Shown: positions 5,808 to 31,637 of the stretch, one piece after another | Layout of the letters: every line of letters starts with the position of its first letter | Numbering within the stretch: position 1 is the stretch's first letter | Origin: Acidobacteriota bacterium | GTDB taxonomy: Bacteria; Acidobacteriota; Thermoanaerobaculia; Multivoradales; UBA5704 | Assembly (NCBI GenBank): GCA_040005235.1 | Contig: JBDTZG010000016.1 | Coordinates: 36,066 to 100,065 of the forward strand | DNA: 64,000 bases | Direction: 5' to 3' | Made by a program: the position numbers and the translations under genes | Notes under the pieces: model-generated | Database searches by the model: none | What the model was told of the DNA's origin: nothing | Seen by the model: the letters and a program-made list of their open reading frames with translations, nothing else

Positions 5808-6849
5808 GGCGATCGAGGAAGCCCGGGCGGCGGAACCCGCCGTTGGGGCGGACGCGCGGGCGGAACCCGCAGTAGCCACGTCCGCCCTTTCGGCTGAAAC
5901 CGCGCGGGTCTCCGAGCGCTTCGCCGCGCTTTCCGCCCAGCTCGATCGCGTGGTGATCGGCCAGGGGAGGGTGAAGGAGCAGCTGCTCGCCTGCCTGCTC
6001 GCGGGCGGCCACGCGCTGCTCGAAGGGGTCCCCGGCACCGCGAAGACGCTGCTCGCGCTCGGCCTGTCGCGTCTGCTCGGCGGACGCTTCCGGCGCATTC
6101 AGTTCACCCCCGATCTGATGCCCGCGGATCTTTTGGGCACGAACATCTTCAATCCCAAGACCCAGGAATTCGACTTCCGCTCCGGGCCGATCTTCTGCGA
6201 CCTGCTGCTCGCCGACGAGGTGAACCGCACACCGCCGCGCACCCAATCCGCGCTGCTCGAAGCGATGCAGGAACGGGCTGCGACGATCGACGGCGAGCGG
6301 CGGCCGATCTCGCCGGTATTCCTGGTCGTCGCGACCCAGAACCCGATCGAGTTCGAGGGGACCTATCCGCTGCCGGAAGCGCAACGCGATCGCTTTCTGC
6401 TCAAGATCTCGATCGAGGTCCCTAACGCGGAAGAGGAAACCGCGGTGCTTGCCGCCTACGCCTCCGGCCATCGGCTGCATGAGGAGGTGGCGAATCTTCA
6501 GCCGATGATGTCGATTTCGGAGCTGGTCGCCGCGCGCCAGCTGGTATCGGAGCGGGTGCGGGTCGAGCCGGCGCTGCTCTCCTACATCCAGCGCGTGGTG
6601 GCAAAGACCCGCGATCACGAATCTGTCCAGATCGGAGCCGGCCCGCGTGCCTCGCTCGCGCTGCTCGACGTGGCCCGCGCCATCGCCCTCCTGCGCGGGC
6701 GCGATTTCGCCACGCCGGACGACGTCAAGGAAATGGCTGAGCCGGTACTCGTCCACCGGGTGATCCTCACCCCCGAGGCGGAGATGGAAGGCGTGCGCCT
6801 CGCCGACCTACTGCGCAGGATCTTCGAGCAGGTGGAGGTCCCGCGCTGA
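5773..6849 (+). CDS. moxR: MoxR-family AAA+ ATPase
   Basis: GGAGG then ATG 5773; HALLEGVPGTAKT (Walker A), RIQFTPDLMPAD, LLADEVNRTPPRTQSALLEAMQE, ATQNPIEFEGTYPLPEAQRDRF. Confidence 0.95.
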   Translation: MSENTEPSAEPKAIEEARAAEPAVGADARAEPAVATSALSAETARVSERFAALSAQLDRVVIGQGRVKEQLLACLLAGGHALLEGVPGTAKTLLALGLSRLLGGRFRRIQFTPDLMPADLLGTNIFNPKTQEFDFRSGPIFCDLLLADEVNRTPPRTQSALLEAMQERAATIDGERRPISPVFLVVATQNPIEFEGTYPLPEAQRDRFLLKISIEVPNAEEETAVLAAYASGHRLHEEVANLQPMMSISELVAARQLVSERVRVEPALLSYIQRVVAKTRDHESVQIGAGPRASLALLDVARAIALLRGRDFATPDDVKEMAEPVLVHRVILTPEAEMEGVRLADLLRRIFEQVEVPR

Positions 6850-8249: not shown

Positions 8250-10947
<2,698 letters not shown>

Positions 10948-10957
10948 GAGGAGAACA

Positions 10958-12484
10958 CTACGCCCGATCGACCGCCCGTTGTATCAAAACCAACGCGCCT
11001 CCGCAGCACAACCCCGCGAGCCCCAGCAGTGCCATACCCCCGAACCCTCCCGGGTTCTCACCGGCAAGCAGCGCGCCTCTCCAGGCGTCGACGGTGACCG
11101 AGAGCGGATTGAACCGGGCAATCGCCGACAACCAGTCAGGCATCACGCGATGCGGCACCAGCGCGGTGCTGGTGAAGAAGAGCGGCATGTTCACCAGATG
11201 GACGAACGTCGCCATCCCCTCCTGCGAACGGGTAACGAAGGCGAGGATCGAGGAGAGCGCGGCGAAGGCGGCGGCGAAGAGGGCTAGATAGAGGAGGGCG
11301 ATCGCGGAGGCCGCCGGAGCCCAGAGGAGGTGGGCACCGAGGAGGCGGGCGAGGAGGAGGACGACGAGCGCCTGCACCACCAGGCGCGCCACGTCGGCCG
11401 CGAGCTTACCGGCCAGGATTGGGGCGGGGCCTGCCGGTGCGGCGAGAAGGCGGGGGAGAAATCCGGTTTGGAGGTCGCGAATCCAGCCGATGCCGGATTG
11501 CGAGGCGCCGAACAGGAGGGTCATCACGCTCACTCCCGGCGCCAGGTAATCGAGATAGGTCGTGTGGCCCGATGGGTCGAGCTGGAAGCGGTGGAAGAGA
11601 AAGCCGAAAAAGAGCATCCAGATCAGAGGCTGGCCGAGCGAAAAGGTGAGCAGGACCGGCCGGCGAAGGACGGCGCGGGTGGTGCGGCGGGCGACGGCGC
11701 GTACGGCATCGAGGGGGAGAGCCGTGTGGCCGGTGGACCTGGTGGCGAAACGGTTCGGCTGGGGTAGGGGCGAGGCATGCCTCGCTCCTACGACCTGTTG
11801 ATCGATCCACCCCTTCTCCAGCACCACCACCCGATCCGCCGCTTCGGCCGCGACGTGATCGTGGGTTGAGATCACCACGGTCACTCCGCGCGCCGCGCGC
11901 CTGCCAAGCTCTTCCCAGAGCATCGCCGTGCCTTCGGCGTCGAGGCCGGCGGTCGGCTCGTCGAGCAGCAGCAGGGCGGGGTCGTGGATCATCCCGGCCG
12001 CGAGATGCAGCCGGCGCTTCTGTCCTCCGGACCAGGTGGCGACGGGCCGGTCGAGCGGCTTTTCGATGCCGAAGGCGGCGGCGATCTCGGCGATCCGTGT
12101 CGCGCGGCGGGCGTGTGGCACGGCGTGGAGCGCGGCGATCAGGTCGAGCGTCTCGCGGCCGGACATCTCGGGATCGAGCGCGAGGTCCTGGGGGACGAAC
12201 CCGAGATCGGCTCGGAGCTCTTTCTGTTCCAACCTCCCCGCCTTTGCGGGCTCGTCCACTCCGAGCACCGTAACCGTTCCCGCACTCGTCGCCAGGCGCC
12301 CGGCGAGAATGCGGAGCAGCGTACTCTTGCCCGCGCCGTTCGGTCCGAGCAGCGCGGTGACCGTGCCGCGCGGCAGGTCGAGGTCGAGGTCTGTGAGGGC
12401 GGCGACGGCGCCGAAATCCTTCCGGACGCGGCGGAGGGAGGCCGCGAGGTCGGAGGGTTTCGGCGCCGATTCTTCAGTCGGCAT
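10958..12484 (-). CDS. ABC-2 type exporter with ATPase and permease fused in one polypeptide
   Basis: GPNGAGKST, WSGGQKRR, LLLLDEPTAGLD, STH, then a six-TM ABC-2 permease (MPDWLSAIARFNPLS). Confidence 0.9.
   Translation of the reverse strand: MPTEESAPKPSDLAASLRRVRKDFGAVAALTDLDLDLPRGTVTALLGPNGAGKSTLLRILAGRLATSAGTVTVLGVDEPAKAGRLEQKELRADLGFVPQDLALDPEMSGRETLDLIAALHAVPHARRATRIAEIAAAFGIEKPLDRPVATWSGGQKRRLHLAAGMIHDPALLLLDEPTAGLDAEGTAMLWEELGRRAARGVTVVISTHDHVAAEAADRVVVLEKGWIDQQVVGARHASPLPQPNRFATRSTGHTALPLDAVRAVARRTTRAVLRRPVLLTFSLGQPLIWMLFFGFLFHRFQLDPSGHTTYLDYLAPGVSVMTLLFGASQSGIGWIRDLQTGFLPRLLAAPAGPAPILAGKLAADVARLVVQALVVLLLARLLGAHLLWAPAASAIALLYLALFAAAFAALSSILAFVTRSQEGMATFVHLVNMPLFFTSTALVPHRVMPDWLSAIARFNPLSVTVDAWRGALLAGENPGGFGGMALLGLAGLCCGGALVLIQRAVDRA
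11764..11791. repeat. GTAG-type REP-like palindrome inside the ABC gene linker
   Basis: GTAGGGGCGAGGCA-TGCCTCGCTCCTAC: 28-bp inverted repeat with one mismatch; encodes VGARHASPL on the coding strand. Confidence 0.75.
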
Positions 12485-22159: not shown

Positions 22160-23227
22160 ATGAGCTTGAAGCCGATCGACAGCATCGTGGGCCACCTGGG
22201 TGCCGACGCGGACGACCTCCTCTCTTTCACCTGCAAGGGCATCCCCAAAGAGATGCTGACCCTTCCGGGTCCCGATTACATCGACCGGGCGTTCGCGCTC
22301 TCGGACCGGAAGACCCAGGTGCTGGTGAACCTCGGACGGCTCTATGGCACCGGCCGGCTCGCGAACACGGGGTATCTGTCGATCCTGCCGGTCGATCAAG
22401 GCATCGAGCACTCGGCGGCGGCTTCGTTCGCGCCGAACCCGATCTATCTGGAGCCGGAAAACATCGTCAAGCTCGCGATCGAGGGGGGCTGCAACGCGGT
22501 CGCCTCGACGGTTGGCGTTCTCGGGGCGGTCGCCCGGAAGTACGCGCACAAAATCCCGTTCATCGCCAAGATCAACCACAACGAGCTGCTCACTTACCCG
22601 AACAAGGCGGAACAGATCCTGTTCGGCTCCGTCGAGCAGGCCTGGGAGATGGGCGCGGCGGCGGTCGGCGCCACGATCTACTTCGGTTCGGATGACGCCT
22701 CTCGCGAAATCGTCGAGATCGCCGAGGCGTTCCGGCATGCGCACGAGCTGGGGCTCGCGACCGTCCTCTGGTGCTACACCCGGAACAACGCTTTCAAGAA
22801 GGACGGCGTCGATTACCACACCGCCGCCGACCTCACCGGTCAGGCGAACCATCTCGGCGTGACGATCCAGGCCGACATCATCAAGCAGAAGCTCGCCACC
22901 TTGAACGGTGGCTACCCCGCGATCGGCTTCGGCAAGACCAGCCCGAAGATCTACGGCGAGCTGGTCACCGACCATCCGATCGACTGGAACCGCTGGCAGG
23001 TCGCCAACTGCTACCTCGGCCGGATAGGACTGATCAACTCCGGCGGAGAATCCCAAGGCGCCGCCGACCTCGCCCACGCAGTCCGCACCGCGGTGATCAA
23101 CAAGCGCGCCGCAGGCTGCGGCCTGATCTCCGGCCGGAAAGCCTTCCAGCGCCCGATGGCCGAAGGCGCCGCGCTGCTCATGGCGATTCAGGACGTGTAC
23201 CTGTGCGACGAGGTGACGGTGGCGTAA
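22160..23227 (+). CDS. fbaB: Class I fructose-bisphosphate aldolase (DhnA/FbaB type)
   Basis: [49 protein letters not shown]. Confidence 0.95.
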
Positions 23228-23251
23228 GGGGTGGGGCAGGGAGCTGGCCCG

Positions 23252-23385
23252 ATGCCCAGAGCTGACATCTACTGGATACCTGGCCCATGGCTGGGACGCT
23301 TGGCCATCGTGCCCCGTCCCCGGGGTAGTGACTGGCTCGGGGACGAGGCGCGGGCTTGGCGGGATGCCGGACTCTCGGTCATTTG
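23252..23385 (+). pseudogene. Truncated N-terminus of a small tyrosine/dual-specificity phosphatase
   Basis: MPRADIYWIPGPWLGRLAIVPRPRGSDWLGDEARAWRDAGLSV resembles this family's N-terminus; no HCxxGxxR catalytic loop follows. Confidence 0.6.
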
Positions 23386-23548
23386 GCGCCGGGGGTCGTT
23401 GGTGCGCTGGAGACGCCCCGACAGCCAGCACCCGGGTAGGTCTGTGGTCGCGTCCTGGGGCGTCTCTACCCCCTGCAGTGCCTCCGAGCAGGCGCGTAAA
23501 CCCTGATAGCCTTGGCGCCTTCCGGTCTTTCGGAGGAGGCGCGCCGCG

Positions 23549-26449
23549 ATGAATCTCCCCACCCTCGCTTCTCAGGTCGTCGAAGCCCTGGCTCCGGCGT
23601 TGCCGCTCCTGCTCGGCACGGCGGGAGCGATCGGTGGATCGGTGGCGAAGGAGATCGGAAAAGACGTCTGGGAGAAGGGGAAACAGATCTGGGGCCGCGT
23701 CGGCGGCACGATCGAAGCGAGCCCTGCGGCTAAGGAGATCGCACAGGAGCTGGCCGCTGATCCCGAGGACGCCGACCTCAAGAGGCAGCTGGCCGACCGG
23801 CTCGCGCGGCTGCTTGCAAAGGACGAGGCGCTCGCCACTACTCTCGCCGCTTGGGCCAGCGAGAGTGTCGTGGTGCAGAACCAGGGGTCCGGCCCTGCGG
23901 TAGCCGCCGCCACGAAGGGCATCGCGGCAGGTCATGACCTCGTCAATATTCAGACGGTCAACGTCTATCTAACCACCATCAACCGCGAGCTTGCCGCCGT
24001 CGCTCCGGCGGTCGATCTGGAGCAGGGGATGCGGCGTTATCAGGCGTATCTCCTGTCGCGGCACACCCACCTCGAATTTCGCGGCATGGGCGTCGACCGC
24101 CTGGTGCTCAAGCTGCCGCTCACGGAAGTCTACGTGCCGGGCCGCGCGCGGGTGCGGGCTCCCGAGGGGGACTCGTGGACGCGAATCGCGGCACGCCTCC
24201 GGGGTCGCGAGCCGGGCGCTGAGGACGTCGAATCGATGGGGGAGCGAGGTCGCCCGGCCGAGCTGCTCGATCTGTTGAAAGACAAGGCCGGGCTCGTACT
24301 GCTCGGCGATCCGGGGGCGGGCAAGTCGACGTTCTTGAAGTTCCTCGCGCTCAAGGCCGCGCGCGGTGAATCCGAAGAACTCGGTCTCGGCCTTCGGCTG
24401 CCGCTGCTCGCCCCGCTCGCGGCGTATGCCACGCGCCTTGGCGGGGAGCCGGGCTTGAATCTCCAGTCTTTCCTCGCCGAGCAGCTCGCCGAACAGGGGG
24501 TGCAGGTCAACGCCGCGCGCCTGCTCGCCGAGGGGCTCGGCAAGGGGCGAATGCTGATCCTGCTCGATGGCCTCGACGAGGTGGCGGACGAAAAGCTGCG
24601 CCACAAGGTAGCCGCGCGGGTGAAGGACTTCTTCTGCGCGGTCCAAGGGGACGGCAACAAACTGGTCGCGACCAGCCGGATCGTCGGCTATGCCGAGGCG
24701 CGGATCGAAGCGGAAGGCCTGGGCGAAGGCACGCTGGTCGATTTCGACGACGACGAGATCGAGGCGTTCGTGACCCGCTGGACCGCGGCGGTCGAACGCG
24801 CCGCGCGGGGCGAGGGCGATGCCGCGACCTTCGACGCCGAGCGCGAACGCACGGGACTGCTGGCGGCGATTCGTCGCGACTCCGGCGTCGGGCGCTTGGC
24901 CGCAAATCCGCTCCTCCTCACCATTCTCGCCCTGATGAAACGCCAGGGGGTGGAGCTGCCCGAGCGGCGGGCGGAGCTCTACTCAACCTACGTCCGCGTG
25001 CTGATCCACCAATGGAATCTCGCGCGTTCGCTCTCGGGCGAAGCGGTCGCCGGTCTCGACGTGGGCGAAACGCTTCGGGTTCTCGCCCCGCTCGCGCTCT
25101 GGATGCAGGAGACCTCCGGCGCGCGCGGCATGGTTACGGAAGAGGCGTTGCAAGGGGAGCTGCGCCGCCTCTTTGCCGATGAGCCCGATCCGGCGCAGGC
25201 GGCGGCGCGCTTTCTATTCGACGTGCGGAAGGACACCGCGCTCCTGATCGACCGCGGAGGCAAGACTTTCGGCTTCATCCACCTCACTTTCCAGGAGTAC
25301 CTGGCGGCGGTCGCGCTGGTCCAAACCGCGCAGATCGAGCTACCGCCGCTGGTCGAAGCGCTCGCGGCCCGAGTCGGCCAGCCGGAGTGGCTGGAAGTGA
25401 TTCGTTTGGCCATTGGCGATCTCGCGCGCGATCGTCCCGAAGCCGCGGGGCGGATGAGCGAACAGATCCTCGAAAGCCGACCCGGTCCGCCGGGCGAGGC
25501 CGAGATCTTTGCCGGCCTCGCGGCGCTCGACATCGGCCGCAAGGGTCTCCCCGCCGCCTCGCGCGAACGCGCGGTCGGCGCGCTGCTCTCGACCCTGCGC
25601 GACGACGAGCGAGTGCCGGCCGGCATCCGCGCCCAGGCGGGCGAAGTGCTGGCGGATCTGGGCGACCCGCGCCCGGAGGTGACGACGCTCGCCGGAATGC
25701 AGTTCTGCCGGGTGCCGGCGGGTCCATTTCGGATGGGGAGCGAAGAGCGCGACGAGGATTCTTACTTGGACGAGCGGCCGCAGCACGATCTCGACCTTCC
25801 CGAGCCGTACGAAATCGGGCGCTTCCCGGTCACGGTTGCGCAGTTCGCGGAATACGTCGTGCGAAGCGGCAACCCTCCCGGCGATCCGGACGCTTTGCGC
25901 GGCGGGGTGAACACTCCCGTCGTCTGGGTGAGTTGGCACGGGGCGACCTCCTTCTGTCGCTGGCTCACCGAAACATGGCGGGAGGAAGGGAAGTTGAAGG
26001 CGGACGGGCAGGTGCGCCTGCCGTCGGAAGCGGAGTGGGAAAAAGCTGCGCGGGGCGGCTTGGTCAACAATCCGGCGCCGACGAGAAATTACCCCTGGGA
26101 GGGGGCCTTCGATCCGAACCGGGCTAATTGCAACGCCACGGAGATCGGGAGACTGAGCGCGGTGGGCTGCTTCCCCGGTGGGGCGAGCCCGCACGGAGTG
26201 GAGGAGCTGGCGGGGAATGTGTGGGAGTGGACCCGGAGCGTTCGGGCCGAGAAGTTCAGCTACCCCTACGTGCCTGGCGACGGTCGGGAGGACCTCGAAT
26301 CTCCCCTTCAGGTGGTGTTGCGCGGTGGGGCGTTCCTCGATCGGCCGAGGGTCATCCGTTGTGCCGTTCGCGACTGGGGCGAACCTGACGGTCGCTACGA
26401 CGGTGTCGGGTTTCGTATCGTGGTGTCCCCGTTCCTCTCTGGCCTCTGA
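23549..26449 (+). CDS. STAND/NLR-like protein 1: Bell-like helical domain, amyloid-like motif, NACHT NTPase, FGE-sulfatase (C-type lectin fold) domain
   Basis: GGAGG RBS; LLGDPGAGKST, LILLDGLDEV, NPLLL, FIHLTFQEYLAA; GDPR; RLPSEAEWEKAARG, GNVWEW, VLRGGAF, GFR. Confidence 0.92.
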   Translation: MNLPTLASQVVEALAPALPLLLGTAGAIGGSVAKEIGKDVWEKGKQIWGRVGGTIEASPAAKEIAQELAADPEDADLKRQLADRLARLLAKDEALATTLAAWASESVVVQNQGSGPAVAAATKGIAAGHDLVNIQTVNVYLTTINRELAAVAPAVDLEQGMRRYQAYLLSRHTHLEFRGMGVDRLVLKLPLTEVYVPGRARVRAPEGDSWTRIAARLRGREPGAEDVESMGERGRPAELLDLLKDKAGLVLLGDPGAGKSTFLKFLALKAARGESEELGLGLRLPLLAPLAAYATRLGGEPGLNLQSFLAEQLAEQGVQVNAARLLAEGLGKGRMLILLDGLDEVADEKLRHKVAARVKDFFCAVQGDGNKLVATSRIVGYAEARIEAEGLGEGTLVDFDDDEIEAFVTRWTAAVERAARGEGDAATFDAERERTGLLAAIRRDSGVGRLAANPLLLTILALMKRQGVELPERRAELYSTYVRVLIHQWNLARSLSGEAVAGLDVGETLRVLAPLALWMQETSGARGMVTEEALQGELRRLFADEPDPAQAAARFLFDVRKDTALLIDRGGKTFGFIHLTFQEYLAAVALVQTAQIELPPLVEALAARVGQPEWLEVIRLAIGDLARDRPEAAGRMSEQILESRPGPPGEAEIFAGLAALDIGRKGLPAASRERAVGALLSTLRDDERVPAGIRAQAGEVLADLGDPRPEVTTLAGMQFCRVPAGPFRMGSEERDEDSYLDERPQHDLDLPEPYEIGRFPVTVAQFAEYVVRSGNPPGDPDALRGGVNTPVVWVSWHGATSFCRWLTETWREEGKLKADGQVRLPSEAEWEKAARGGLVNNPAPTRNYPWEGAFDPNRANCNATEIGRLSAVGCFPGGASPHGVEELAGNVWEWTRSVRAEKFSYPYVPGDGREDLESPLQVVLRGGAFLDRPRVIRCAVRDWGEPDGRYDGVGFRIVVSPFLSGL
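26315..26428 (+). repeat. Candidate DGR variable repeat VR1
   Basis: 114 bp colinear with 29189..29302; differences concentrated at codon positions 1-2; identical 3' block. Confidence 0.65.
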
Positions 26450-26507
26450 GCTCTGGGCCCTCTGTTCTCTGGCGGGCACTTGCGGAAACCCCACCCGCCC
26501 TTCGACC

Positions 26508-26518
26508 TTGCTAAACTG
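26508..26518 (+). promoter_or_regulatory. Extended -10-like element TTGCTAAACTG upstream of NLR 2
   Basis: TGn-TAAACT; the same 11-mer occurs at 29372..29382. Confidence 0.45.
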
Positions 26519-26551
26519 AGCGCTCATCCTTGTTCAGGGAGCGCGGAGGCC

Positions 26552-29338
26552 GTGACGAAAAGAGCAGAGCCCGACGGGACCGACCTCGTACGCTCGGCGC
26601 TCGCGGCGCAGGGGTACTCGGAAGAAAAGATCGCGGAGATTCTCGCGGGTCTGGGTGGCGCGCATGCGAAGGCGGAAAGCCAGAGCGCCGTGTCGCAAGG
26701 GGGTGGCGCCGCCGCGACCGATCACGGCATCGCGGTCGGGGGTGACGTTCATGGCGGCATGACCGTGGTGCAACCCGGAGTCTCCGGCGCGCCGACCGGT
26801 AAGACTCTGGACGAGGCGTACCTCCGCTATCTCTGCGCCGAAGTGAGCCGGGTCACCCTGTCGCAGATCGATTCTTCGGTCGAAGGCGCCGATCCGCTCG
26901 CGAAGTTTGAGCTTCACGCGGTCTATACCGCTTTGCTGACCACGACTCCTCGCGGCAAGCCGGGACGCGAGATGCCTGCCCCATCGATGTTGGATCGTGG
27001 AGTGCGCTCCCTGTCCGCGCTCGAACTGCTCGACCTGCACCCGCGGTTGGTTCTACTCGGCGATCCGGGTTCGGGCAAGAGCACGTTCGTCCACTTTGTG
27101 GCGCTCTGTCAGGCGGGGGAGCGAGTCGGCGCCCCCTGGCCGGATCTCGGCGTGCTCACCGCCCCCGTTCCCGGGGAAGAGAAGGTACAGCCCTGGCGGC
27201 ACGGCACGCTCGTGCCGGTGCGAGTGATCCTCCGTGACTTTGCGGTCGATGGCCTGCCGGCGCTCGGGGAGAAGGCAACGGCAGAGCACCTCTGGCAGTT
27301 CATCGCAGGCAGCCTCGCCGCGGTGGGGGTCGGCGACTACGCGCCCCGGCTGCGAGATCGACTCCTTTCCGAAGGCGGGCTCGTGCTGCTCGACGGTCTG
27401 GATGAAGTCCCGGACGCTGCGGGCCGGCGGTTGCAGATCCGCGAAGCGGTGGAGAGCTTCTCAGGGTTGTACACCAAGTGTCGGGTTCTGGTGACCAGCC
27501 GGATCTATTCGTACCGCAGCCAGGGTTGGCGCCTTACAGGCTTCGAGGAAGCGGAGCTGGCGCCCTTTTCCGACGCGCAGATCGAGCGCTTCGTGAAGGA
27601 TTGGTACGCCCACGCGGCGAGCCGCGGGCGCGGCAGCGCGGAGGATGCGGAGGGCCAGGCGCGCTTGTTGGTCCAAGAGATCGAAGGAAACCCCCGCCTG
27701 CGCGGTTTCGCGGAGCGACCACTATTGCTGACGTTGATGGCGAGCCTGGCGCGGGCGCGCGGCCGGGGCTTACCGGATCGGCGGGCGAAACTCTACGAGC
27801 AGGTGGTCGAGCTGCTACTGGACCTGTGGGAATGCGTTCGCTATCAGAAGGACAAGGAGGGAAAATACCGCCTCGTCCAGCCCAGCCTTTCCGATTGGTT
27901 GAAGACCGACCGTAGCGCCGTGCGGGAAGTGCTCGAAGATCTCGCCTTCGAGGCGCATTCCGCGCAAACCGCCGCCGAGGGTACGGCCGACATCGCGGAG
28001 AAAGACCTGGTGGCTCGGTTGGTGAAGCTCGCCGGGAGCGAAGAGGTCAGCCAGAAACAGCTGGTCAAGTTTCTGAGCGAGCGTTCGGGGCTCTTGATCG
28101 CACGCGGCGTCGAGGTTTTCACCCTGCCGCACCGAACGTTTCAAGAGTACCTAGCCGCCTGCCATCTGACTCGCGGCTCGTTTCCCGATGAGGTGGCGGA
28201 GCTCGGCCGGCAGGACCCCGACCGCTGGCGGGAGGTCGTACTCCTTGCCGCCGCAAAAGCCGAAGAGGGAACGGTCGCCAACGTCTGGACGCTCGCCCGG
28301 AGCCTTTGTTCGGTCGATCCGGAGTCCGCGGAGTCGGAGCTGCCAGACGCCTTGGGCGCATTCTTGGGAGGTCTCGCCTTGGTCGAGTCTCCCCGGGCGC
28401 TGGGCCAGGTAGGGCGACAGAATCGCGATCAGCTCGAACGGCTGCGCCGCTGGCACATCCATTTGCTCGGAGACGAGCGCTTTCCGGCCGTGGAGCGCAC
28501 GGCGGCGGGGACGACGCTTTGGGCGCTGGGCGATCCGCGTTTCAATGAGGAGACGTGGTTTCTGCCGAAGGATCCGCTGTTGGGATTCGTGGAGATCCAG
28601 GAGGGCAATTTCCGCATGGGGGAGGACGCCGGGCTGCACGAGGTCTTTCTCCCGACCTTCTACATGGCGCGTTGGCCGGTGACGGTGGCGCAGTTCCGGG
28701 CGTTCGCGGTGGCGGCACAATACGAAGGGGTGCCGAAGGAGTTCTTGGACCGTCCGGGAAGCGATCCTGTCGTGTCGGTAAACTGGCACGACGCCTTGGC
28801 GTATTCGCGTTGGCTGGGGGGGCGTTTGCTGGCCGAGGCGGAGAAGAAAAAAGCGTCTGGGTGTGGAGACGAGGAGCGCGAGCGGGCATTCTGGCAAGGT
28901 CTGGCATCGGGCGACCTGTCGGTGAGGCTGCCGTCAGAAACGGAGTGGGAGAAGTCGGCGCGGGGCGTCGCCGGTCTGACCTACCCATGGGGCGAGAGGC
29001 ATGCGCGGAATCGGTCGAACGATTACGATTCAGGGGTAGGGAAGGTGAGTGCGGTCGGCTGCTTTCCGCGTGGTGCGAGCCCGTACGGGGTGGAGGATCT
29101 GGCGGGGAACGTGTGGGAGTGGACCCGGAGTGTTTGGGGCGAGAAGTTCAACTACCCCCCCGTGAAAGGTGACGGAAGGGAGGACCGAGTATTGCGCGGC
29201 GGGGCGTTCAACGATCTCCCCTGGTTCGCCCGGTGTGCCGTTCGCCACAGGTACGCTCCCGCCGACCGCAACGGCAGTGTCGGGTTTCGTATCGTGGTGT
29301 CCCGTTCCGATCTGGCCTCTGAGTTCTCTGGATTCTGA
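26552..29338 (+). CDS. STAND/NLR-like protein 2: N-terminal amyloid-like motif, NACHT NTPase, FGE-sulfatase (C-type lectin fold) domain
   Basis: GGAGG then GTG 26552; LLGDPGSGKST, LVLLDGLDEV, RPLLL, LPHRTFQEYLAA; GDPR; RLPSETEWEKSARG, GNVWEW, VLRGGAF, GFR. Confidence 0.92.
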   Translation: MTKRAEPDGTDLVRSALAAQGYSEEKIAEILAGLGGAHAKAESQSAVSQGGGAAATDHGIAVGGDVHGGMTVVQPGVSGAPTGKTLDEAYLRYLCAEVSRVTLSQIDSSVEGADPLAKFELHAVYTALLTTTPRGKPGREMPAPSMLDRGVRSLSALELLDLHPRLVLLGDPGSGKSTFVHFVALCQAGERVGAPWPDLGVLTAPVPGEEKVQPWRHGTLVPVRVILRDFAVDGLPALGEKATAEHLWQFIAGSLAAVGVGDYAPRLRDRLLSEGGLVLLDGLDEVPDAAGRRLQIREAVESFSGLYTKCRVLVTSRIYSYRSQGWRLTGFEEAELAPFSDAQIERFVKDWYAHAASRGRGSAEDAEGQARLLVQEIEGNPRLRGFAERPLLLTLMASLARARGRGLPDRRAKLYEQVVELLLDLWECVRYQKDKEGKYRLVQPSLSDWLKTDRSAVREVLEDLAFEAHSAQTAAEGTADIAEKDLVARLVKLAGSEEVSQKQLVKFLSERSGLLIARGVEVFTLPHRTFQEYLAACHLTRGSFPDEVAELGRQDPDRWREVVLLAAAKAEEGTVANVWTLARSLCSVDPESAESELPDALGAFLGGLALVESPRALGQVGRQNRDQLERLRRWHIHLLGDERFPAVERTAAGTTLWALGDPRFNEETWFLPKDPLLGFVEIQEGNFRMGEDAGLHEVFLPTFYMARWPVTVAQFRAFAVAAQYEGVPKEFLDRPGSDPVVSVNWHDALAYSRWLGGRLLAEAEKKKASGCGDEERERAFWQGLASGDLSVRLPSETEWEKSARGVAGLTYPWGERHARNRSNDYDSGVGKVSAVGCFPRGASPYGVEDLAGNVWEWTRSVWGEKFNYPPVKGDGREDRVLRGGAFNDLPWFARCAVRHRYAPADRNGSVGFRIVVSRSDLASEFSGF
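29189..29302 (+). repeat. Candidate DGR variable repeat VR2
   Basis: Ungapped alignment with 26315..26428; retains AAC and AGG codons where VR1 has CTC, TAC and TGG. Confidence 0.65.
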
Positions 29339-29371
29339 ACTCTTGCCCTCTGTACTCTGGCGAGTGGCACT

Positions 29372-29382
29372 TTGCTAAACTG
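29372..29382 (+). promoter_or_regulatory. Extended -10-like element TTGCTAAACTG upstream of the Bell-like gene
   Basis: Identical to 26508..26518; 36 nt before ATG 29419. Confidence 0.45.
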
Positions 29383-29418
29383 TTGGTATCCACTTTCACA
29401 CGGTGCGGGAGATGCGTA

Positions 29419-29907
29419 ATGGAAGGCATGGATCTCAGTTTGATCGCCCAAGCAACGATCGCGGTTCTCGGCCCCCTCGTCGGCCAGCTGTTTTCGGTCG
29501 GTGGCGAGAAGGCGGTCGAGGCTGCGGCGGGGAAGTTCGGCGAGGGCATGTTCGAACGGGCGAAGGCGGCGTTGGGCAAGCTCGGCAAGAAGGCCGAGGC
29601 CAAGCCGGGCGCTCCAGAGGCCGCGCGGGCGGTGGCCGAGACACCGGACGACACTTACGCGCAGGCGGAGCTGGTGCTTCACCTGAAGAAGATCCTTGCC
29701 GCCGATCCGGATCTGGCGGCGGAGCTGGAGCAGATCGTCCGGAAGAGCCCGGCGGGGAATGTGATGATCGCGACCGCCACCGATCGCTCCGCCATCGGAC
29801 AGGGGGGCGGTGCGGCGGCGGCGGGCGGCGGTATCGCGATCGGTGGCAACGTCTACGGCGGCGCGCGGTTCGATCGCGACGAAGAAGGCGGCGGCGGCAA
29901 GCGGTAG
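29419..29907 (+). CDS. Small Bell-like helical effector with C-terminal amyloid-signalling-like motif
   Basis: Helical domain aligns by eye with the NLR 1 N-terminus (PDDTYAQAELVLHLKKILAADPDLAAEL vs PEDADLKRQLADRLARLLAKDEALATTL); C-terminal SAIGQGGGAAAAGGGIAIGGNVYGG. Confidence 0.85.
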   Translation: MEGMDLSLIAQATIAVLGPLVGQLFSVGGEKAVEAAAGKFGEGMFERAKAALGKLGKKAEAKPGAPEAARAVAETPDDTYAQAELVLHLKKILAADPDLAAELEQIVRKSPAGNVMIATATDRSAIGQGGGAAAAGGGIAIGGNVYGGARFDRDEEGGGGKR

Positions 29908-29924
29908 CAGGCGAGCTGATTTCA

Positions 29925-30344
29925 GCGCTTGCCCCGCACAATTCGGCCGATGACTTGTGCGATTCCGCGATTGACGTGTGCGAAAACGCCGTCACAGCGC
30001 ACGATTCCGGCGCTGATTTTTACAGGACGGCCGTCGGCGAGGGGTCGCGAGGCGTCGAAAATTGGATTCCTGCCGTCCACAAGGGGTTCTCAGCCGTCGA
30101 CGCGTGCAGGCCGGCCGTTCCTTTGTGCGAGTTTCCCGTTCGCAAGGCCTCGCGAGCCGCGAAAAATAGGTCGGCAGCCATCGATTCGCACATGTTTCTC
30201 GCTGCCTTGTGCGAAATTTTGGTTCACCGATCGTTGTGGGCGGCAGAAATCCCATTGGCAGCGGCGTACGAGGGACCGGCGACGGACGACGCTCGTGTGG
30301 CGGCGGTTGAAATCCTGTCGGGGGCGACCGAGACGGGATCGTGA
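29925..30344 (+). repeat. Degenerate tandem array, 21-bp period, about 20 units
   Basis: Units in phase start with GCCGTC/GGCGTC/GCCGTT/GCCATC-like anchors; recurring in-phase sub-words TGTGCGA, TCGCGA, AGGGGT. Confidence 0.8.
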
Positions 30345-30472
30345 GCGGTCGGCGATCTACCGAATACCGGGGACGGTTTTATCGTGGGGCATGATCCTCT
30401 TCGCGCCCGGACGGCGCCTACTCTAACGAGAAGGCGAAATCCTTCGTCCTTCTGAAGAACAGGGGACCGTCC

Positions 30473-30661
30473 ATGAAATCGAAGCGCGACAAGAAGCTGG
30501 CCTTGAGTGCAGAGACCGTACGCCGCCTGAACAACTTCGAAATGGCCGAGGTGGCGGGCGGAATCACCTCGATCTGCACCGCCAACCCCAACGCCGGCTG
30601 TACGACGTCGGACCACTGTACCGAATCCTGCGGCCCGATCTCCGTCTGCATCTGCCGTTGA
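30473..30661 (+). CDS. RiPP precursor, lanthipeptide-like (double-glycine leader)
   Basis: Leader MKSKRDKKLALSAETVRRLNNFEMAEVAGG; 32-aa core with 6 Cys, 5 Thr, 4 Ser; AGGGGA RBS. Confidence 0.8.
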   Translation: MKSKRDKKLALSAETVRRLNNFEMAEVAGGITSICTANPNAGCTTSDHCTESCGPISVCICR

Positions 30662-30770
30662 CCCTATCGAGCGAGGGTGCTGGACGGACGGAACCGAGCC
30701 GTCCGGCGCCTTCGCGAACCCGTCCTCTACGCCGGGGTGGCCCTCCTCGCTGTGCTATAAATTCGCTCCC

Positions 30771-31637
30771 GTGACGCGTCTTGGAGACCTCGAGCTGGCC
30801 CTGGTCGGCGATGGAGAGTTTCGCCTCGACGGCGGAGCCATGTTCGGGGTCGTGCCGAAAGCGCTCTGGGCGTCGATGAAGGTGCCGGACGCCGACAACC
30901 GCATCCGCATGGCGACGAACTGTGTGCTGGTCCGGCGGGGGAGCGACCTCCTCCTGATCGACACCGGGATCGGCGACAAGCACAACGCCAAATTCGGCGA
31001 GATCTACGACCTAGACCCCCACGCCGTCCGCCTGCCAGAGGCGATCCGAGGGGCCGGTTTCGAGCTTTCAGACGTCACCCACGTCCTGCTGTCGCACCTC
31101 CATTTCGACCACTGCGGCTGGAACACCCGCCGCAACCCGGAGGGCCGGGTCGTTCCGACCTTTCCGAACGCCCGCTATTGGCTGAACCGGGGGGAGGTCG
31201 AGCACGCCAGGAACCCCAGCGAGCGCGACCGGGCGAGCTACTTTCCCGACAACTGGGAGCCGCTGTTCGAGGCGGGCCAGGTCGAGCTGTTCGACGACGA
31301 GGCCGAGCCGATGCTGGGGGTCCGCGCCGTGCGCGCCCCGGGGCATAACGCGGACATGTGCATCGTTCTACTAGATGGCGGAGTCCCCGACGGGGTCCCG
31401 CAACGTGCCGTGTTCTGGGCCGATCTGGTGCCGACCGTCGCCCACGTGCCGCTCCCCTGGATCATGGCTTACGACCTCTATCCGCTGACGACGCTGGAAA
31501 ACAAGAAGAAGTGGCTGCCGCGCGCCTCGGAGGAGAATTGGCTCTGCATCTTCGAGCACGATGCCGAAACTCCCCTCGCCCGCCTGGCCTCGGACCGGCC
31601 GGGGCGTTTCCGCGTCGTACCTGTCGCGGCTCCTTGA
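30771..31637 (+). CDS. Metallo-beta-lactamase-fold hydrolase (YtnP-like)
   Basis: FRLDGGAMFGVVPK, LIDTG, SHLHFDHCG, PGH, WIMAYDLYP, FEHD. Confidence 0.92.
   Translation: MTRLGDLELALVGDGEFRLDGGAMFGVVPKALWASMKVPDADNRIRMATNCVLVRRGSDLLLIDTGIGDKHNAKFGEIYDLDPHAVRLPEAIRGAGFELSDVTHVLLSHLHFDHCGWNTRRNPEGRVVPTFPNARYWLNRGEVEHARNPSERDRASYFPDNWEPLFEAGQVELFDDEAEPMLGVRAVRAPGHNADMCIVLLDGGVPDGVPQRAVFWADLVPTVAHVPLPWIMAYDLYPLTTLENKKKWLPRASEENWLCIFEHDAETPLARLASDRPGRFRVVPVAAP

What the first reader, a model, noticed from the sequence alone, without database searches (positions are those of the whole stretch)
26315..29302. The 3' ends of both NACHT-FGE genes look like DGR variable repeats from an unlinked template
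Seen: 26315..26428 and 29189..29302 align without gaps over 38 codons. I count 17 mismatches at codon positions 1-2 against 8 at position 3, giving 14 amino-acid changes, often with the third base kept (CTC/AAC, GTC/TTC, ATC/GCC, GAC/CAC, GGC/TAC, TAC/AAC, GAC/GGC, GGT/AGT, AGG/TGG). The last 26 nt (GTGTCGGGTTTCGTATCGTGGTGTCC) are identical although the NACHT regions are very divergent. Known: adenine-specific DGR mutagenesis of AAC/AAT template codons gives this pattern between the RGG and GFR motifs. No reverse transcriptase or template repeat is in the window, so these would be remote targets (inference).
Basis: partly seen in the sequence, partly recalled or inferred. Interest (0 to 1): 0.85.

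Follow-up and report, generated by a model that had tools for sequence, protein, structure and literature searches.

The report
Orphaned DGR targets without their retroelement
The ends of two neighbouring NACHT-type sensor genes carry the mutational scar of a diversity-generating retroelement, a known targeted-hypermutation system, but the retroelement itself is not found in this genome, so they are most likely frozen leftovers.

Summary
The 17:8 split is only the neutral 2:1 ratio. The decisive evidence comes from a same-genus genome, G002. It has a complete DGR (bAvd, template repeat, RT with IGNLTSQ) between two homologous NACHT-FGE genes. Laid on that template, 17 of the 25 mismatches fall on its 26 adenines and 8 on its 88 other bases (Fisher p=2e-8). 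So both 3' ends are DGR variable repeats by origin.

The "unlinked template" part is not supported. This assembly (100% complete by markers, 140 contigs) holds no third copy, no Avd and no DGR-type RT, only group II intron RTs. Other signs fit frozen relics. Synonymous divergence between the two repeats is 0.32, against 0.03-0.09 for three of the four within-genome pairs measured in relatives. The GC hairpin downstream of most relatives' repeats is missing. A third paralog is truncated. The array sits in a 6.6-kb island. An unbinned cassette cannot be excluded. The architecture is already published (Doré 2024).

The parts
23549..26449 (+). Gene 1: NACHT-FGE (STAND NTPase plus C-type-lectin-fold sensor), 966 aa, intact
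   Evidence: ORF and translation. Pfam NACHT at aa 250-413 (E 5e-10) and FGE-sulfatase at aa 720-958 (E 2.5e-45). Against the G006 ortholog the gene body has dN/dS 0.165. The exact protein is on record as a singleton 90% cluster.
26315..26428 (+). VR1: DGR-type variable repeat at the 3' end of gene 1. Variable sites span 26336-26402; the last 26 nt are identical to VR2.
26429..26518 (+). Post-VR CTCTG-rich element, stop codon of gene 1, and the conserved leader TTGCTAAACTG (26508-26518) ahead of gene 2. The long GC hairpin found here in relatives is absent.
   Evidence: Sequence. Comparison, fold. The leader matches G006 at 98% over 41 nt and is repeated before both G002 targets (family D13).
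26552..29338 (+). Gene 2: NACHT-FGE, 928 aa from GTG 26552 (the ORF is open from TTG 26480), intact
   Evidence: The 26552 start gives the exact protein on record. It is 63-65% identical to G002 target gA and 57-58% to gB.
29189..29302 (+). VR2: DGR-type variable repeat at the 3' end of gene 2. A 1-nt shorter C-run just after it shifts the C-terminal tail.
   Evidence: the gap in G000_VR2 after GTGT.
29303..29382 (+). Post-VR2 element, stop codon, and a second copy of the leader TTGCTAAACTG (29372-29382). The roughly 47-nt GC-hairpin block present in G006 C359 is missing.
29383..29907 (+). Truncated third paralog: only the N-terminal ~170 aa of a NACHT-FGE-type gene, ending at the island's right edge
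   Evidence: ORF. It is 62% identical to the N-terminus of G002 gB, 59% to gA and 88% to G006 C359. There is no Pfam hit.
23382..29941 (.). 6.6-kb island holding the array. Its flanks lie 0.03-0.6 kb apart in four congeners.
23384..23480 (.). 97-nt palindromic dispersed repeat at the left edge of the island
   Evidence: 29 hits in G000 at E<=1e-6; copies also lie beside VR genes in G006 C319 and G004 C78.

Best explanation
The two segments are variable repeats (VRs) written by a diversity-generating retroelement into the C-type-lectin-fold (FGE-type) sensor domains of two tandem NACHT/STAND NTPase genes. The mechanism is the established one. An RT with Avd copies a template repeat (TR) and misreads its adenines, and the cDNA replaces the VR. 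Codons that are AAC, GAC, GAA or AGG in the template become random at positions 1-2, while the other bases stay fixed.

In this genome the avd-TR-RT cassette is no longer present. The two VRs are therefore relics: each is frozen in one state, drifting by ordinary point mutation, and sits in genes that stay intact.

Shown here: the DGR origin of the pattern; the lack of RT, Avd and TR in the assembly; the island context; and the missing hairpin.

Inferred: that the cassette was lost rather than left out of the bin, and that the genes work as fixed-specificity intracellular sensors of the NLR type, with NACHT as the switch and the CLec domain as the ligand binder.
For: 1. A comparator DGR exists in the same genus. 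In G002 contig C107 (locus L038, minus strand) the order is: NACHT-FGE gene A with VR 11498-11674; a 116-aa bAvd (PF22296, 61.2 bits against cut-off 40; NF033474, 78.7 bits against cut-off 80); TR 10838-11014; a 399-aa RT (RVT_1, 60.7 bits, with IGNLTSQ); then NACHT-FGE gene B with VR 6310-6486. Its VRs differ from its TR at 15/26 adenines each and at 1/88 and 2/88 other sites.

2. The window's VR1-VR2 mismatches hit 17/26 TR-adenine sites against 8/88 others, p=2.1e-8.

3. Across 11 VRs from 5 genomes of the genus, columns at TR adenines hold 3.50 different bases on average and other columns 1.41.

4. VR1 and VR2 share 13 non-A states that differ from the G002 TR. They also share three states in the last 26 nt that differ from G006 and G003. 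This points to a common template in their own lineage.

5. No cassette is found in G000: (best hit 29% identity, the group II RT).

6. There are signs of age. Non-A mismatches between VR1 and VR2 are 8/88, against 3/88 in G002 and 1/88 in G004. VR dS is 0.32, against 0.085 in G002, 0.067 in G004 and 0.03-0.09 for three G006 VRs.

7. An 11-12-bp GC stem with a 4-nt loop lies about 70 nt after the VR in G002 (2/2), G004 (3/3), G006 (2/4, one cut by a contig end) and the G003 orphan (imperfect). It is absent after both G000 VRs, and no plausible copy was found in G000 allowing up to 2 mismatches. Such a hairpin is needed for efficient homing in phage BPP-1 (PMC3240598, passages read).

8. Two runs from one study each hold one contig across 25800-29700 with 0 differences. 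Both proteins are singleton 90% clusters.

9. Decay of this DGR type is seen elsewhere. G046, whose locus lies on a 3-Mb contig, has avd and TR beside an RT that lacks about 134 internal residues.

10. The genes are maintained: gene 1 against its G006 ortholog gives body dS 0.38, dN 0.063.
Against: G000 is a metagenome bin, as the runs indicate, so absence from the bin is not absence from the cell.

G004 (5 VR genes) and G006 (4 VR genes) also lack RT, Avd and TR in their bins. Yet their VR scaffolds are nearly identical (1/88; dS 0.03-0.09). That looks like recent homing and suggests bins in this genus can miss the cassette.

The age signals rest on few sites: 7.5 synonymous differences and 8 non-A mismatches. 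Some of those 8 could be adenines in a template of G000's own lineage.

The hairpin's role is inferred. Its loop (CTTG) and its distance from the VR (~70 nt) differ from the published GRNA loop at 4-34 bp. It could simply be a terminator. G006 C319b lacks it and still has a tight scaffold.

The runs are held only as contigs, which drop rare variants, and they may be the source of this assembly.
Confidence: 0.72

Rival explanations
1. The VRs are live remote targets, and a DGR cassette with a matching template exists in the same cells (on the chromosome, a plasmid or a phage) but was not assembled or binned.
For: Remote targets and action in trans are documented (PMC5758913 and PMC10907252, passages read). 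G000 is a bin. Two sister bins (G004, G006) have freshly homogenised VR scaffolds but no cassette either, so cassettes may be systematically missed. VR1 and VR2 share lineage-specific scaffold states.
Against: The bin is 100% complete by markers. No RT, Avd or TR is in it. Where the cassette was seen in this order (G002, G037, G046, G057) it lies beside or between the NACHT-FGE target genes. Here, one 100-kb contig runs through both targets with no cassette. VR dS is 0.32, about four times that in G002. The hairpin is missing. No variant appears in two runs. The scaffold pattern was not found in the metagenome contig collection.
Confidence: 0.18
2. No retroelement was ever involved. Instead, the 3' ends were homogenised by gene conversion between tandem paralogs, and ordinary diversifying selection on the ligand-binding residues then produced the excess of first- and second-position changes.
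For: The block just upstream of the VR (26150-26314) is also younger than the gene bodies (dS 0.55 against 1.4-1.5) with normal purifying selection (dN 0.13). So some conversion beyond the TR-sized segment is likely. The 17:8 split alone fits relaxed or positive selection.
Against: The mismatches coincide with the adenines of a real TR in a congener (p=2e-8). The same columns are hypervariable in all 11 VRs of the genus, while neighbouring columns are fixed. Homologous gene pairs flank avd-TR-RT in G002, G037 and G057.
Confidence: 0.03
3. The array was never diversified in this lineage. The 6.6-kb island arrived by horizontal transfer from a DGR-bearing donor, with VRs already written and without the cassette.
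For: The island lies between flanks that are adjacent in G001-G004. The G002 DGR locus sits at another site that is empty in G000. A dispersed palindromic repeat bounds the island. The third gene is cut at the island's edge.
Against: G006 shares the same insertion and the same truncated-gene junction, so the island predates the G000-G006 split. Yet orthologous VRs differ at 16/26 adenine sites with dN 0.28 against 0.063 in the gene body. That means writing went on after the insertion in at least one lineage. This is a variant of the main reading (relic VRs), not a contradiction of it.
Confidence: 0.07

Closest known systems
Cellular DGRs that diversify STAND NTPase (NACHT or nSTAND1)-CLec 'antigen sensor' genes: clade 5D of Doré et al. 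2024, e.g. Thiohalocapsa PB-PSB1 DGR 3 (PMC10907252, abstract and passages read)
   Same: Two duplicated target genes, each with a central NACHT, a C-terminal FGE-type CLec domain carrying a single VR, and an uncharacterised N-terminal extension. The congener G002 and the order-level relatives G037 and G057 show target-avd-TR-RT-target.
   Different: In the window's genome the avd-TR-RT cassette is absent, and the two targets abut (gene 1's stop codon ends at 26449; gene 2's recorded start is 26552). The host is an uncultured Thermoanaerobaculia bin (record titles of relatives), not one of the multicellular bacteria that paper stresses. I did not place the RT in that paper's tree.
PB-PSB1 'DGR 1': an incomplete or remote locus whose target shows no diversification (PMC10907252, passages read)
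   Same: A STAND-type target with a VR, no working cassette at the locus, and no observed variation.
   Different: That VR still matches a TR elsewhere in the genome at all non-adenine sites. Here no TR exists in the assembly, and the two VRs differ from each other at 8 of 88 non-adenine sites.
Treponema denticola TvpA and its remote targets (FGE-type CLec variable protein, PDB 2Y3C; remote targets per PMC5758913, passages read)
   Same: An FGE-type CLec fold with the VR in the last ~40 residues. The C-terminal part of gene 1 matches 2y3c_A by sequence (E 2.8e-4).
   Different: TvpA is a lipoprotein-type surface protein with a live DGR in the same genome. Here the CLec domain is fused to a cytoplasmic-type NACHT NTPase and no DGR is present.
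Bordetella phage BPP-1 DGR target site: IMH plus hairpin/cruciform (PMC3240598, abstract and passages read)
   Same: Relatives' VRs are followed by a GC-rich inverted repeat with a 4-nt loop that the TR lacks.
   Different: The stem is 11-12 bp, the loop is CTTG or similar rather than GRNA, and the distance is about 70 nt rather than 4-34 bp. The element is missing after both VRs of the window.
Bacterial NACHT / Avs antiviral STAND proteins
   Same: Tripartite layout: N-terminal extension, NACHT NTPase with a P-loop (GDPGAGKST / GDPGSGKST), and a C-terminal sensor.
   Different: No PADLOC model matches. The best NCBIfam antiphage hit, EruA, scores 38 bits against a cut-off of 1000. A defence role is inference only.

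Membership tests
Complete DGR system in this genome | Reverse transcriptase of the DGR type (motif 4 I/LGxxxSQ; this motif rule is recalled, not from a call) | tested here: not met
   PF00078 in G000 gives two hits. One is the group II intron RT on C11 (TIGR04416, 367 bits against cut-off 300; GIIM; it reads QGAVISP). The other is a group II C-terminal fragment on C35. The G002 DGR RT finds only C11, at 28.6-29% identity.
Complete DGR system in this genome | Template repeat: a non-target copy of the VR with A at the variable sites | tested here: not met
   blastn (word size 7) of both 3' ends against all 140 contigs finds only the two VRs. The G006 VR query finds the same two places.
Complete DGR system in this genome | Accessory protein Avd | tested here: not met
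   PF05635, PF22296 and NF033474 give no match in G000. tblastn with the G002 Avd gives no hit.
DGR variable repeat (by origin) | Differences confined mainly to template adenines | tested here: met
   Tested against the TR of congener G002: 17/26 A sites against 8/88 non-A sites differ between VR1 and VR2, p=2.1e-8. It cannot be tested against the genome's own TR because none is found.
DGR variable repeat (by origin) | Located at the 3' end of a target ORF, in a C-type-lectin / FGE fold | tested here: met
   FGE-sulfatase E 2.5e-45 and 4.2e-43, running to the C-terminus. Sequence matches to solved FGE-fold proteins, including TvpA 2y3c.
DGR variable repeat (functional target site) | GC-rich inverted repeat (hairpin/cruciform) downstream of the VR | tested here: not met
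   It is present after the VRs of G002 (2/2), G004 (3/3), G006 (2/4) and G003 (1/1, imperfect). It is absent after both G000 VRs. No plausible copy was found in G000 allowing up to 2 mismatches. That this element serves homing is inference.
DGR variable repeat (functional target site) | Variation within a population at the A sites | tested here: inconclusive
   Two runs hold identical contigs, but contigs hide rare variants and may be the source of the assembly. The proteins form singleton clusters.
NACHT-CLec DGR target genes (Doré 2024 type) | Central NACHT NTPase plus a single C-terminal CLec/FGE domain, in paired targets | tested here: met
   (both genes). Paired targets flank avd-TR-RT in G002, G037 and G057.
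NACHT-CLec DGR target genes (Doré 2024 type) | RT belongs to that paper's clade 5D | not tested
   No tree was built with the paper's RT set, and its supplements were not seen.

The most novel reading that the evidence does not exclude
In Thermoanaerobaculia the diversifier and its targets have separate fates. NACHT-CLec sensor arrays persist for long periods under purifying selection and move as small islands. The avd-TR-RT cassette comes and goes, and this looks like a 'write, then freeze' cycle in which a once-hypermutable receptor is kept as a germline-fixed one. Of the five VR-bearing genomes in this genus, four lack the cassette in their assemblies, and another family's genome (G046) has a gutted RT. 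If those absences are real rather than binning gaps, orphaned DGR targets would be common. They could be recognised from sequence alone by their NNC-codon footprint.
Probability: 0.3. Interest if true: 0.6.

Novelty: new member of a known kind. Interest (0 to 1): 0.45.

Why it matters
Three points follow.

1. A DGR footprint can be recognised in target genes even when the retroelement is gone. Genome surveys that start from the RT will miss such genes.

2. The case offers a natural comparison between sister species. One has live, diversifiable NACHT-CLec sensors (G002). The other has apparently frozen ones (this genome). That comparison could show what these proposed bacterial 'antigen sensors' do, and whether hypermutation is needed continuously.

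3. It is a caution for annotation. These FGE-sulfatase domains are ligand-binding lectin folds, not sulfatase-maturing enzymes.

The gene architecture itself is already published, so the advance is modest.

Tried and rejected
1. Codon-position ratio as proof. Rejected: 17:8 is the neutral 2:1 expectation.

2. Template search in this genome: none found.

3. Scaffold pattern (VR scaffold with N at the variable sites) in public collections. There were 0 hits in metagenome contigs. There were 3 hits in genome contigs, all VRs already known from G006 and G003. The second metagenome scan that was allowed was not used.

4. Reads. Only Logan contigs were available. Two runs from one study, possibly the source of this assembly, each carry the stretch unchanged. 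A third run holds only short pieces under 95% alike, from other organisms. This says nothing about rare variants.

5. Structure prediction of the FGE domain from a 15-row alignment (A3). No model or fold search was done, so the placement of the 14 variable residues on the lectin surface is untested.

6. Rfam on 23000-30900: no family at E<=0.1.

7. PADLOC: no defence model matches genes 1-3.

8. Atlas search with the N-terminal 235 aa: no hit above the lead level. One structural row points to a large NACHT-FGE cluster, which is a lead only.

9. One deletion removing both the cassette and the rest of gene 3. Rejected as unsupported. G006 shares the truncated junction yet has tightly homogenised VRs, so the cassette outlived that deletion or lay elsewhere.

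10. Hairpin loss as a strict marker of dead VRs. Weakened, because G006 C319b lacks the hairpin but has a tight scaffold.

12. In-frame stops reported for the G037 RT. On reading, they lie upstream of the RT domain in the TR-overlapping leader, so that RT is probably intact. Only the G046 RT is clearly degraded.
Full report
WHAT IS THERE

The window is G000:C138:36066-100065. Two tandem plus-strand ORFs cover the finding: 23549..26449 (966 aa) and 26480..29338. For the second, the protein on record starts at GTG 26552 and has 928 aa. Both carry a NACHT NTPase domain (PF05729) and a C-terminal FGE-sulfatase domain (PF03781, E 2.5e-45 and 4.2e-43). They are 34% identical overall.

CHECKING THE OBSERVATION

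The two segments are 114 nt each and align without gaps. There are 25 mismatches, split 9/8/8 over codon positions, and 14 residue changes. The last 26 nt are identical.

The 17:8 split is not informative on its own, because it is the 2:1 ratio of unconstrained change. Two other results are informative. First, the 3' ends are much younger than the rest of the genes. Third-position identity is about 0.4 along the genes and 0.67-0.80 in the last ~100 codons. dS is 1.36-1.53 in the gene bodies, 0.55 in 26150-26314 and 0.31 in the segment. Second, within that young segment nonsynonymous change is as frequent as synonymous change (pN 0.21, pS 0.25). In the block just upstream it is not (pN 0.12, pS 0.39).

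THE DECISIVE COMPARISON

A DNA search of 60 relatives plus G000 itself (61 genomes) with 26140-26530 found many similar 3' ends in the genus. A PF00078 search of the 8 genomes of the genus put a low-scoring RT right between two such matches in G002.

That locus (L038, minus strand) reads as follows:
- NACHT-FGE gene A with a VR at 11498-11674.
- A 116-aa bAvd (PF22296, 61.2 bits against cut-off 40; NF033474, 78.7 bits against cut-off 80).
- A third copy of the repeat at 10838-11014.
- A 399-aa RT (RVT_1, 60.7 bits, carrying IGNLTSQ).
- NACHT-FGE gene B with a VR at 6310-6486.

The middle copy is a template repeat. It has 26 adenines in the 114 aligned positions, in eight AAC codons plus GAA, GAC, AGG, ATC and CGA codons. 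The two G002 VRs differ from it at 15/26 and 15/26 adenines but at only 1/88 and 2/88 other bases.

I laid the window's two segments on this template. Their 25 mutual mismatches fall on 17 of the 26 adenine positions and 8 of the 88 others (odds ratio 18.9, Fisher p=2.1e-8). By my reading of the codons, 13 of the 14 residue-changing codons coincide with template codons that contain A. The exception is ATC/GCC opposite GTT.

In an alignment of 11 VRs from five genomes of the genus, adenine columns hold 3.50 different bases on average and other columns 1.41. The DGR origin of the pattern is therefore, in my judgement, established.

VR1 and VR2 also share 13 non-adenine states that differ from the G002 template. 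They share three states in the final 26 nt that differ from G006 and G003. So they were written from a template of their own lineage, not from the G002 one.

IS THERE A TEMPLATE OR RT IN THIS GENOME?

None was found. G000 is 6.22 Mb in 140 contigs, 100% complete and 0.33% contaminated by markers.
- blastn with word size 7 finds only the two VRs, and a query with a G006 VR finds the same two.
- PF00078 gives two hits. One, at a contig end on C11, is a group II intron RT/maturase (TIGR04416, 367 bits; GIIM). The other, on C35, is a group II C-terminal fragment.
- The G002 RT protein finds only C11, at 28.6-29% identity. The G002 Avd finds nothing.
- PF05635, PF22296 and NF033474 find nothing.

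The 'unlinked template' reading thus fails its own test in this assembly. However, the runs that hold this DNA are metagenomes, so G000 is a bin, and an unbinned contig cannot be excluded.

CONTEXT

The array sits in a 6.6-kb island (about 23382-29941). The DeoC-side flank and the metallo-beta-lactamase-side flank lie 0.03-0.6 kb apart in G001, G002, G003 and G004. G006 shares the insertion. Conversely, the flanks of the G002 DGR locus are adjacent in G000 on contig C83, about 134 bp apart. So these loci sit at different chromosomal sites in different species.

After gene 2 comes a second copy of a conserved leader (TTGCTAAACTG) and then only the first ~170 residues of a third paralog. That fragment is 62% identical to the N-terminus of G002 gene B, and it is cut at the island's right edge. 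G006 has the same junction.

Across the order, the layout target-avd-TR-RT-target recurs in G037 and G057. In G046 the RT has lost about 134 internal residues. This shows that this DGR type does decay, here at a locus on a 3-Mb contig where assembly is not the issue.

ARE THE TWO REPEATS LIVE OR FROZEN?

Several lines favour frozen.
- Non-adenine mismatches between VR1 and VR2 are 8/88. The figures are 3/88 in G002 (cassette present) and 1/88 in G004.
- VR dS is 0.32. It is 0.085 in G002, 0.067 in G004 and 0.03-0.09 among three G006 VRs. The G000 value is close to the 0.38 that separates G000 and G006 orthologs.
- By my comparison with the G006 and G003 rows, six of the eight non-adenine mismatches are derived in VR1.
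- A long GC hairpin (11-12 bp stem, 4-nt loop) lies about 70 nt after most relatives' VRs and is absent from the TR. It is missing after both G000 VRs. Compared with G006 C359, a block of about 47 nt is cleanly absent between CTCTGG and CGNGTGGC. No plausible copy turned up in G000 allowing up to 2 mismatches.
- In phage BPP-1 a GC hairpin downstream of the VR is required for efficient homing, and similar structures are reported to be general (PMC3240598, abstract and passages).
- VR2's tail has a 1-nt shorter C-run that shifts the last residues.
- Two runs carry the stretch with no difference, and both proteins are singleton clusters at 90% identity.

Other lines count against certainty.
- The counts are small.
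- Some non-adenine mismatches could be adenines in the lost template.
- The hairpin differs from the published consensus in loop and distance, and it may be a terminator.
- G006 C319b lacks the hairpin yet has a tight scaffold.
- G004 and G006 have freshly homogenised VRs but no cassette in their bins, which hints that bins can miss the cassette.

I put the frozen-relic reading at about 0.72 and a live but unbinned DGR at about 0.18.

TIMING

Gene 1 and its G006 ortholog are 86% identical in DNA. The gene body is under purifying selection (dN/dS 0.165). Their VRs, however, differ at 16/26 adenine sites, with dN 0.28. So writing continued after the island was in place and after the two species split, in at least one lineage. 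The cassette's former position is unknown.

HOW IT PROBABLY WORKS

By analogy with published work (PMC10907252 and PMC7159879, passages read), these are NLR-like sensors. The variable CLec domain would bind a ligand. NACHT would act as a nucleotide-driven switch. The uncharacterised N-terminal region would signal or recruit an effector. None of this was tested here. No PADLOC model matches, and the N-terminal region has no confident relatives. In this genome the binding surface would now be fixed.

COMPARISON AND NOVELTY

The gene architecture and its coupling to a two-target DGR are published (Doré et al. 2024). Remote and inactive targets are also described, although there a matching TR still exists in the genome.

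My literature searches were: 'diversity-generating retroelement' with NACHT, with cruciform and with Acidobacteri, and a four-term search on template repeat, variable repeat and remnant. I read only the listings and passages named above. None of them showed a description of DGR targets in Thermoanaerobaculia, or of VRs left in a genome without any cassette. Supplements were closed and may hold such cases.

I file this as a new member of a known kind, with an interesting orphan state that still needs read-level confirmation.

Noticed in passing
window 23384-23480: A 97-nt palindromic dispersed repeat (GGAGACGCCCC...GGGGCGTCTC) lies at the left edge of the island. G000 has 29 hits at E<=1e-6, and each congener has dozens of matches. 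Copies also lie just after VR genes in G006 C319 and G004 C78. It may mediate rearrangement of these arrays.
   Followed up: partly
window 30473-30661 (+): A 62-aa ORF has a leader ending in GG and a Cys/Ser/Thr-rich C-terminal half (ITSICTANPNAGCTTSDHCTESCGPISVCICR). It looks like a RiPP or lanthipeptide-type precursor, and it sits just upstream of a metallo-beta-lactamase-fold gene (30771-31637). It was seen only in the ORF list.
   Followed up: no
window 26508-26518 and 29372-29382; L038 9638-9681 and 14609-14652: A conserved leader containing TTGCTAAACTG precedes each target gene's start, in G000 (before gene 2 and before the gene 3 fragment), G002 and G006 (98% over 41 nt). There is no Rfam match. 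It may be a promoter or 5' UTR element of the family.
   Followed up: partly
L044 8750-8880 (G003:C14): An orphan VR: only the last ~130 nt of an FGE gene, with its post-VR element and an imperfect hairpin, preceded by unrelated sequence. It is 89% identical to a G006 VR. This is another relic of the family in a genome without a cassette.
   Followed up: partly
L072 8640-9335 (G046:C5): A DGR RT next to an intact-looking avd and TR has an in-frame internal deletion of about 134 residues, which removes the region that holds IGNLTSQ in G002. It is a decayed DGR on a 3-Mb contig.
   Followed up: partly
window 29297-29338: Gene 2 has one C fewer in the C-run right after the VR than all the other family members. 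Its tail therefore reads RSDLASEFSGF instead of PF(R/L)SGL, and the gene ends 15 nt later in alignment terms.
   Followed up: partly
window 26150-26314 vs 29045-29188: The ~165 nt upstream of the VR, outside the TR-sized repeat, is also much younger than the gene bodies (dS 0.55 against ~1.5) but is under normal purifying selection. An 18-nt indel lies at the VR's 5' border. This suggests gene conversion between the paralogs, or longer homing tracts.
   Followed up: partly
G000:C11:95123-96143 (L001) and G000:C35 (L002 ~1500-1900): A group II intron RT/maturase runs off a contig end, and a separate C-terminal fragment of another lies on C35. These are the only reverse transcriptases in the assembly.
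   Followed up: yes
G004 (C134, C78, C56, C45, C158) and G006 (C319 x2, C359, C232): Sister bins hold five and four VR-bearing FGE genes respectively, with nearly identical non-adenine scaffolds. Yet they have no TR, Avd or DGR RT. In G006 several contigs end just after a VR. Either these cassettes were lost very recently or they escape assembly and binning.
   Followed up: partly
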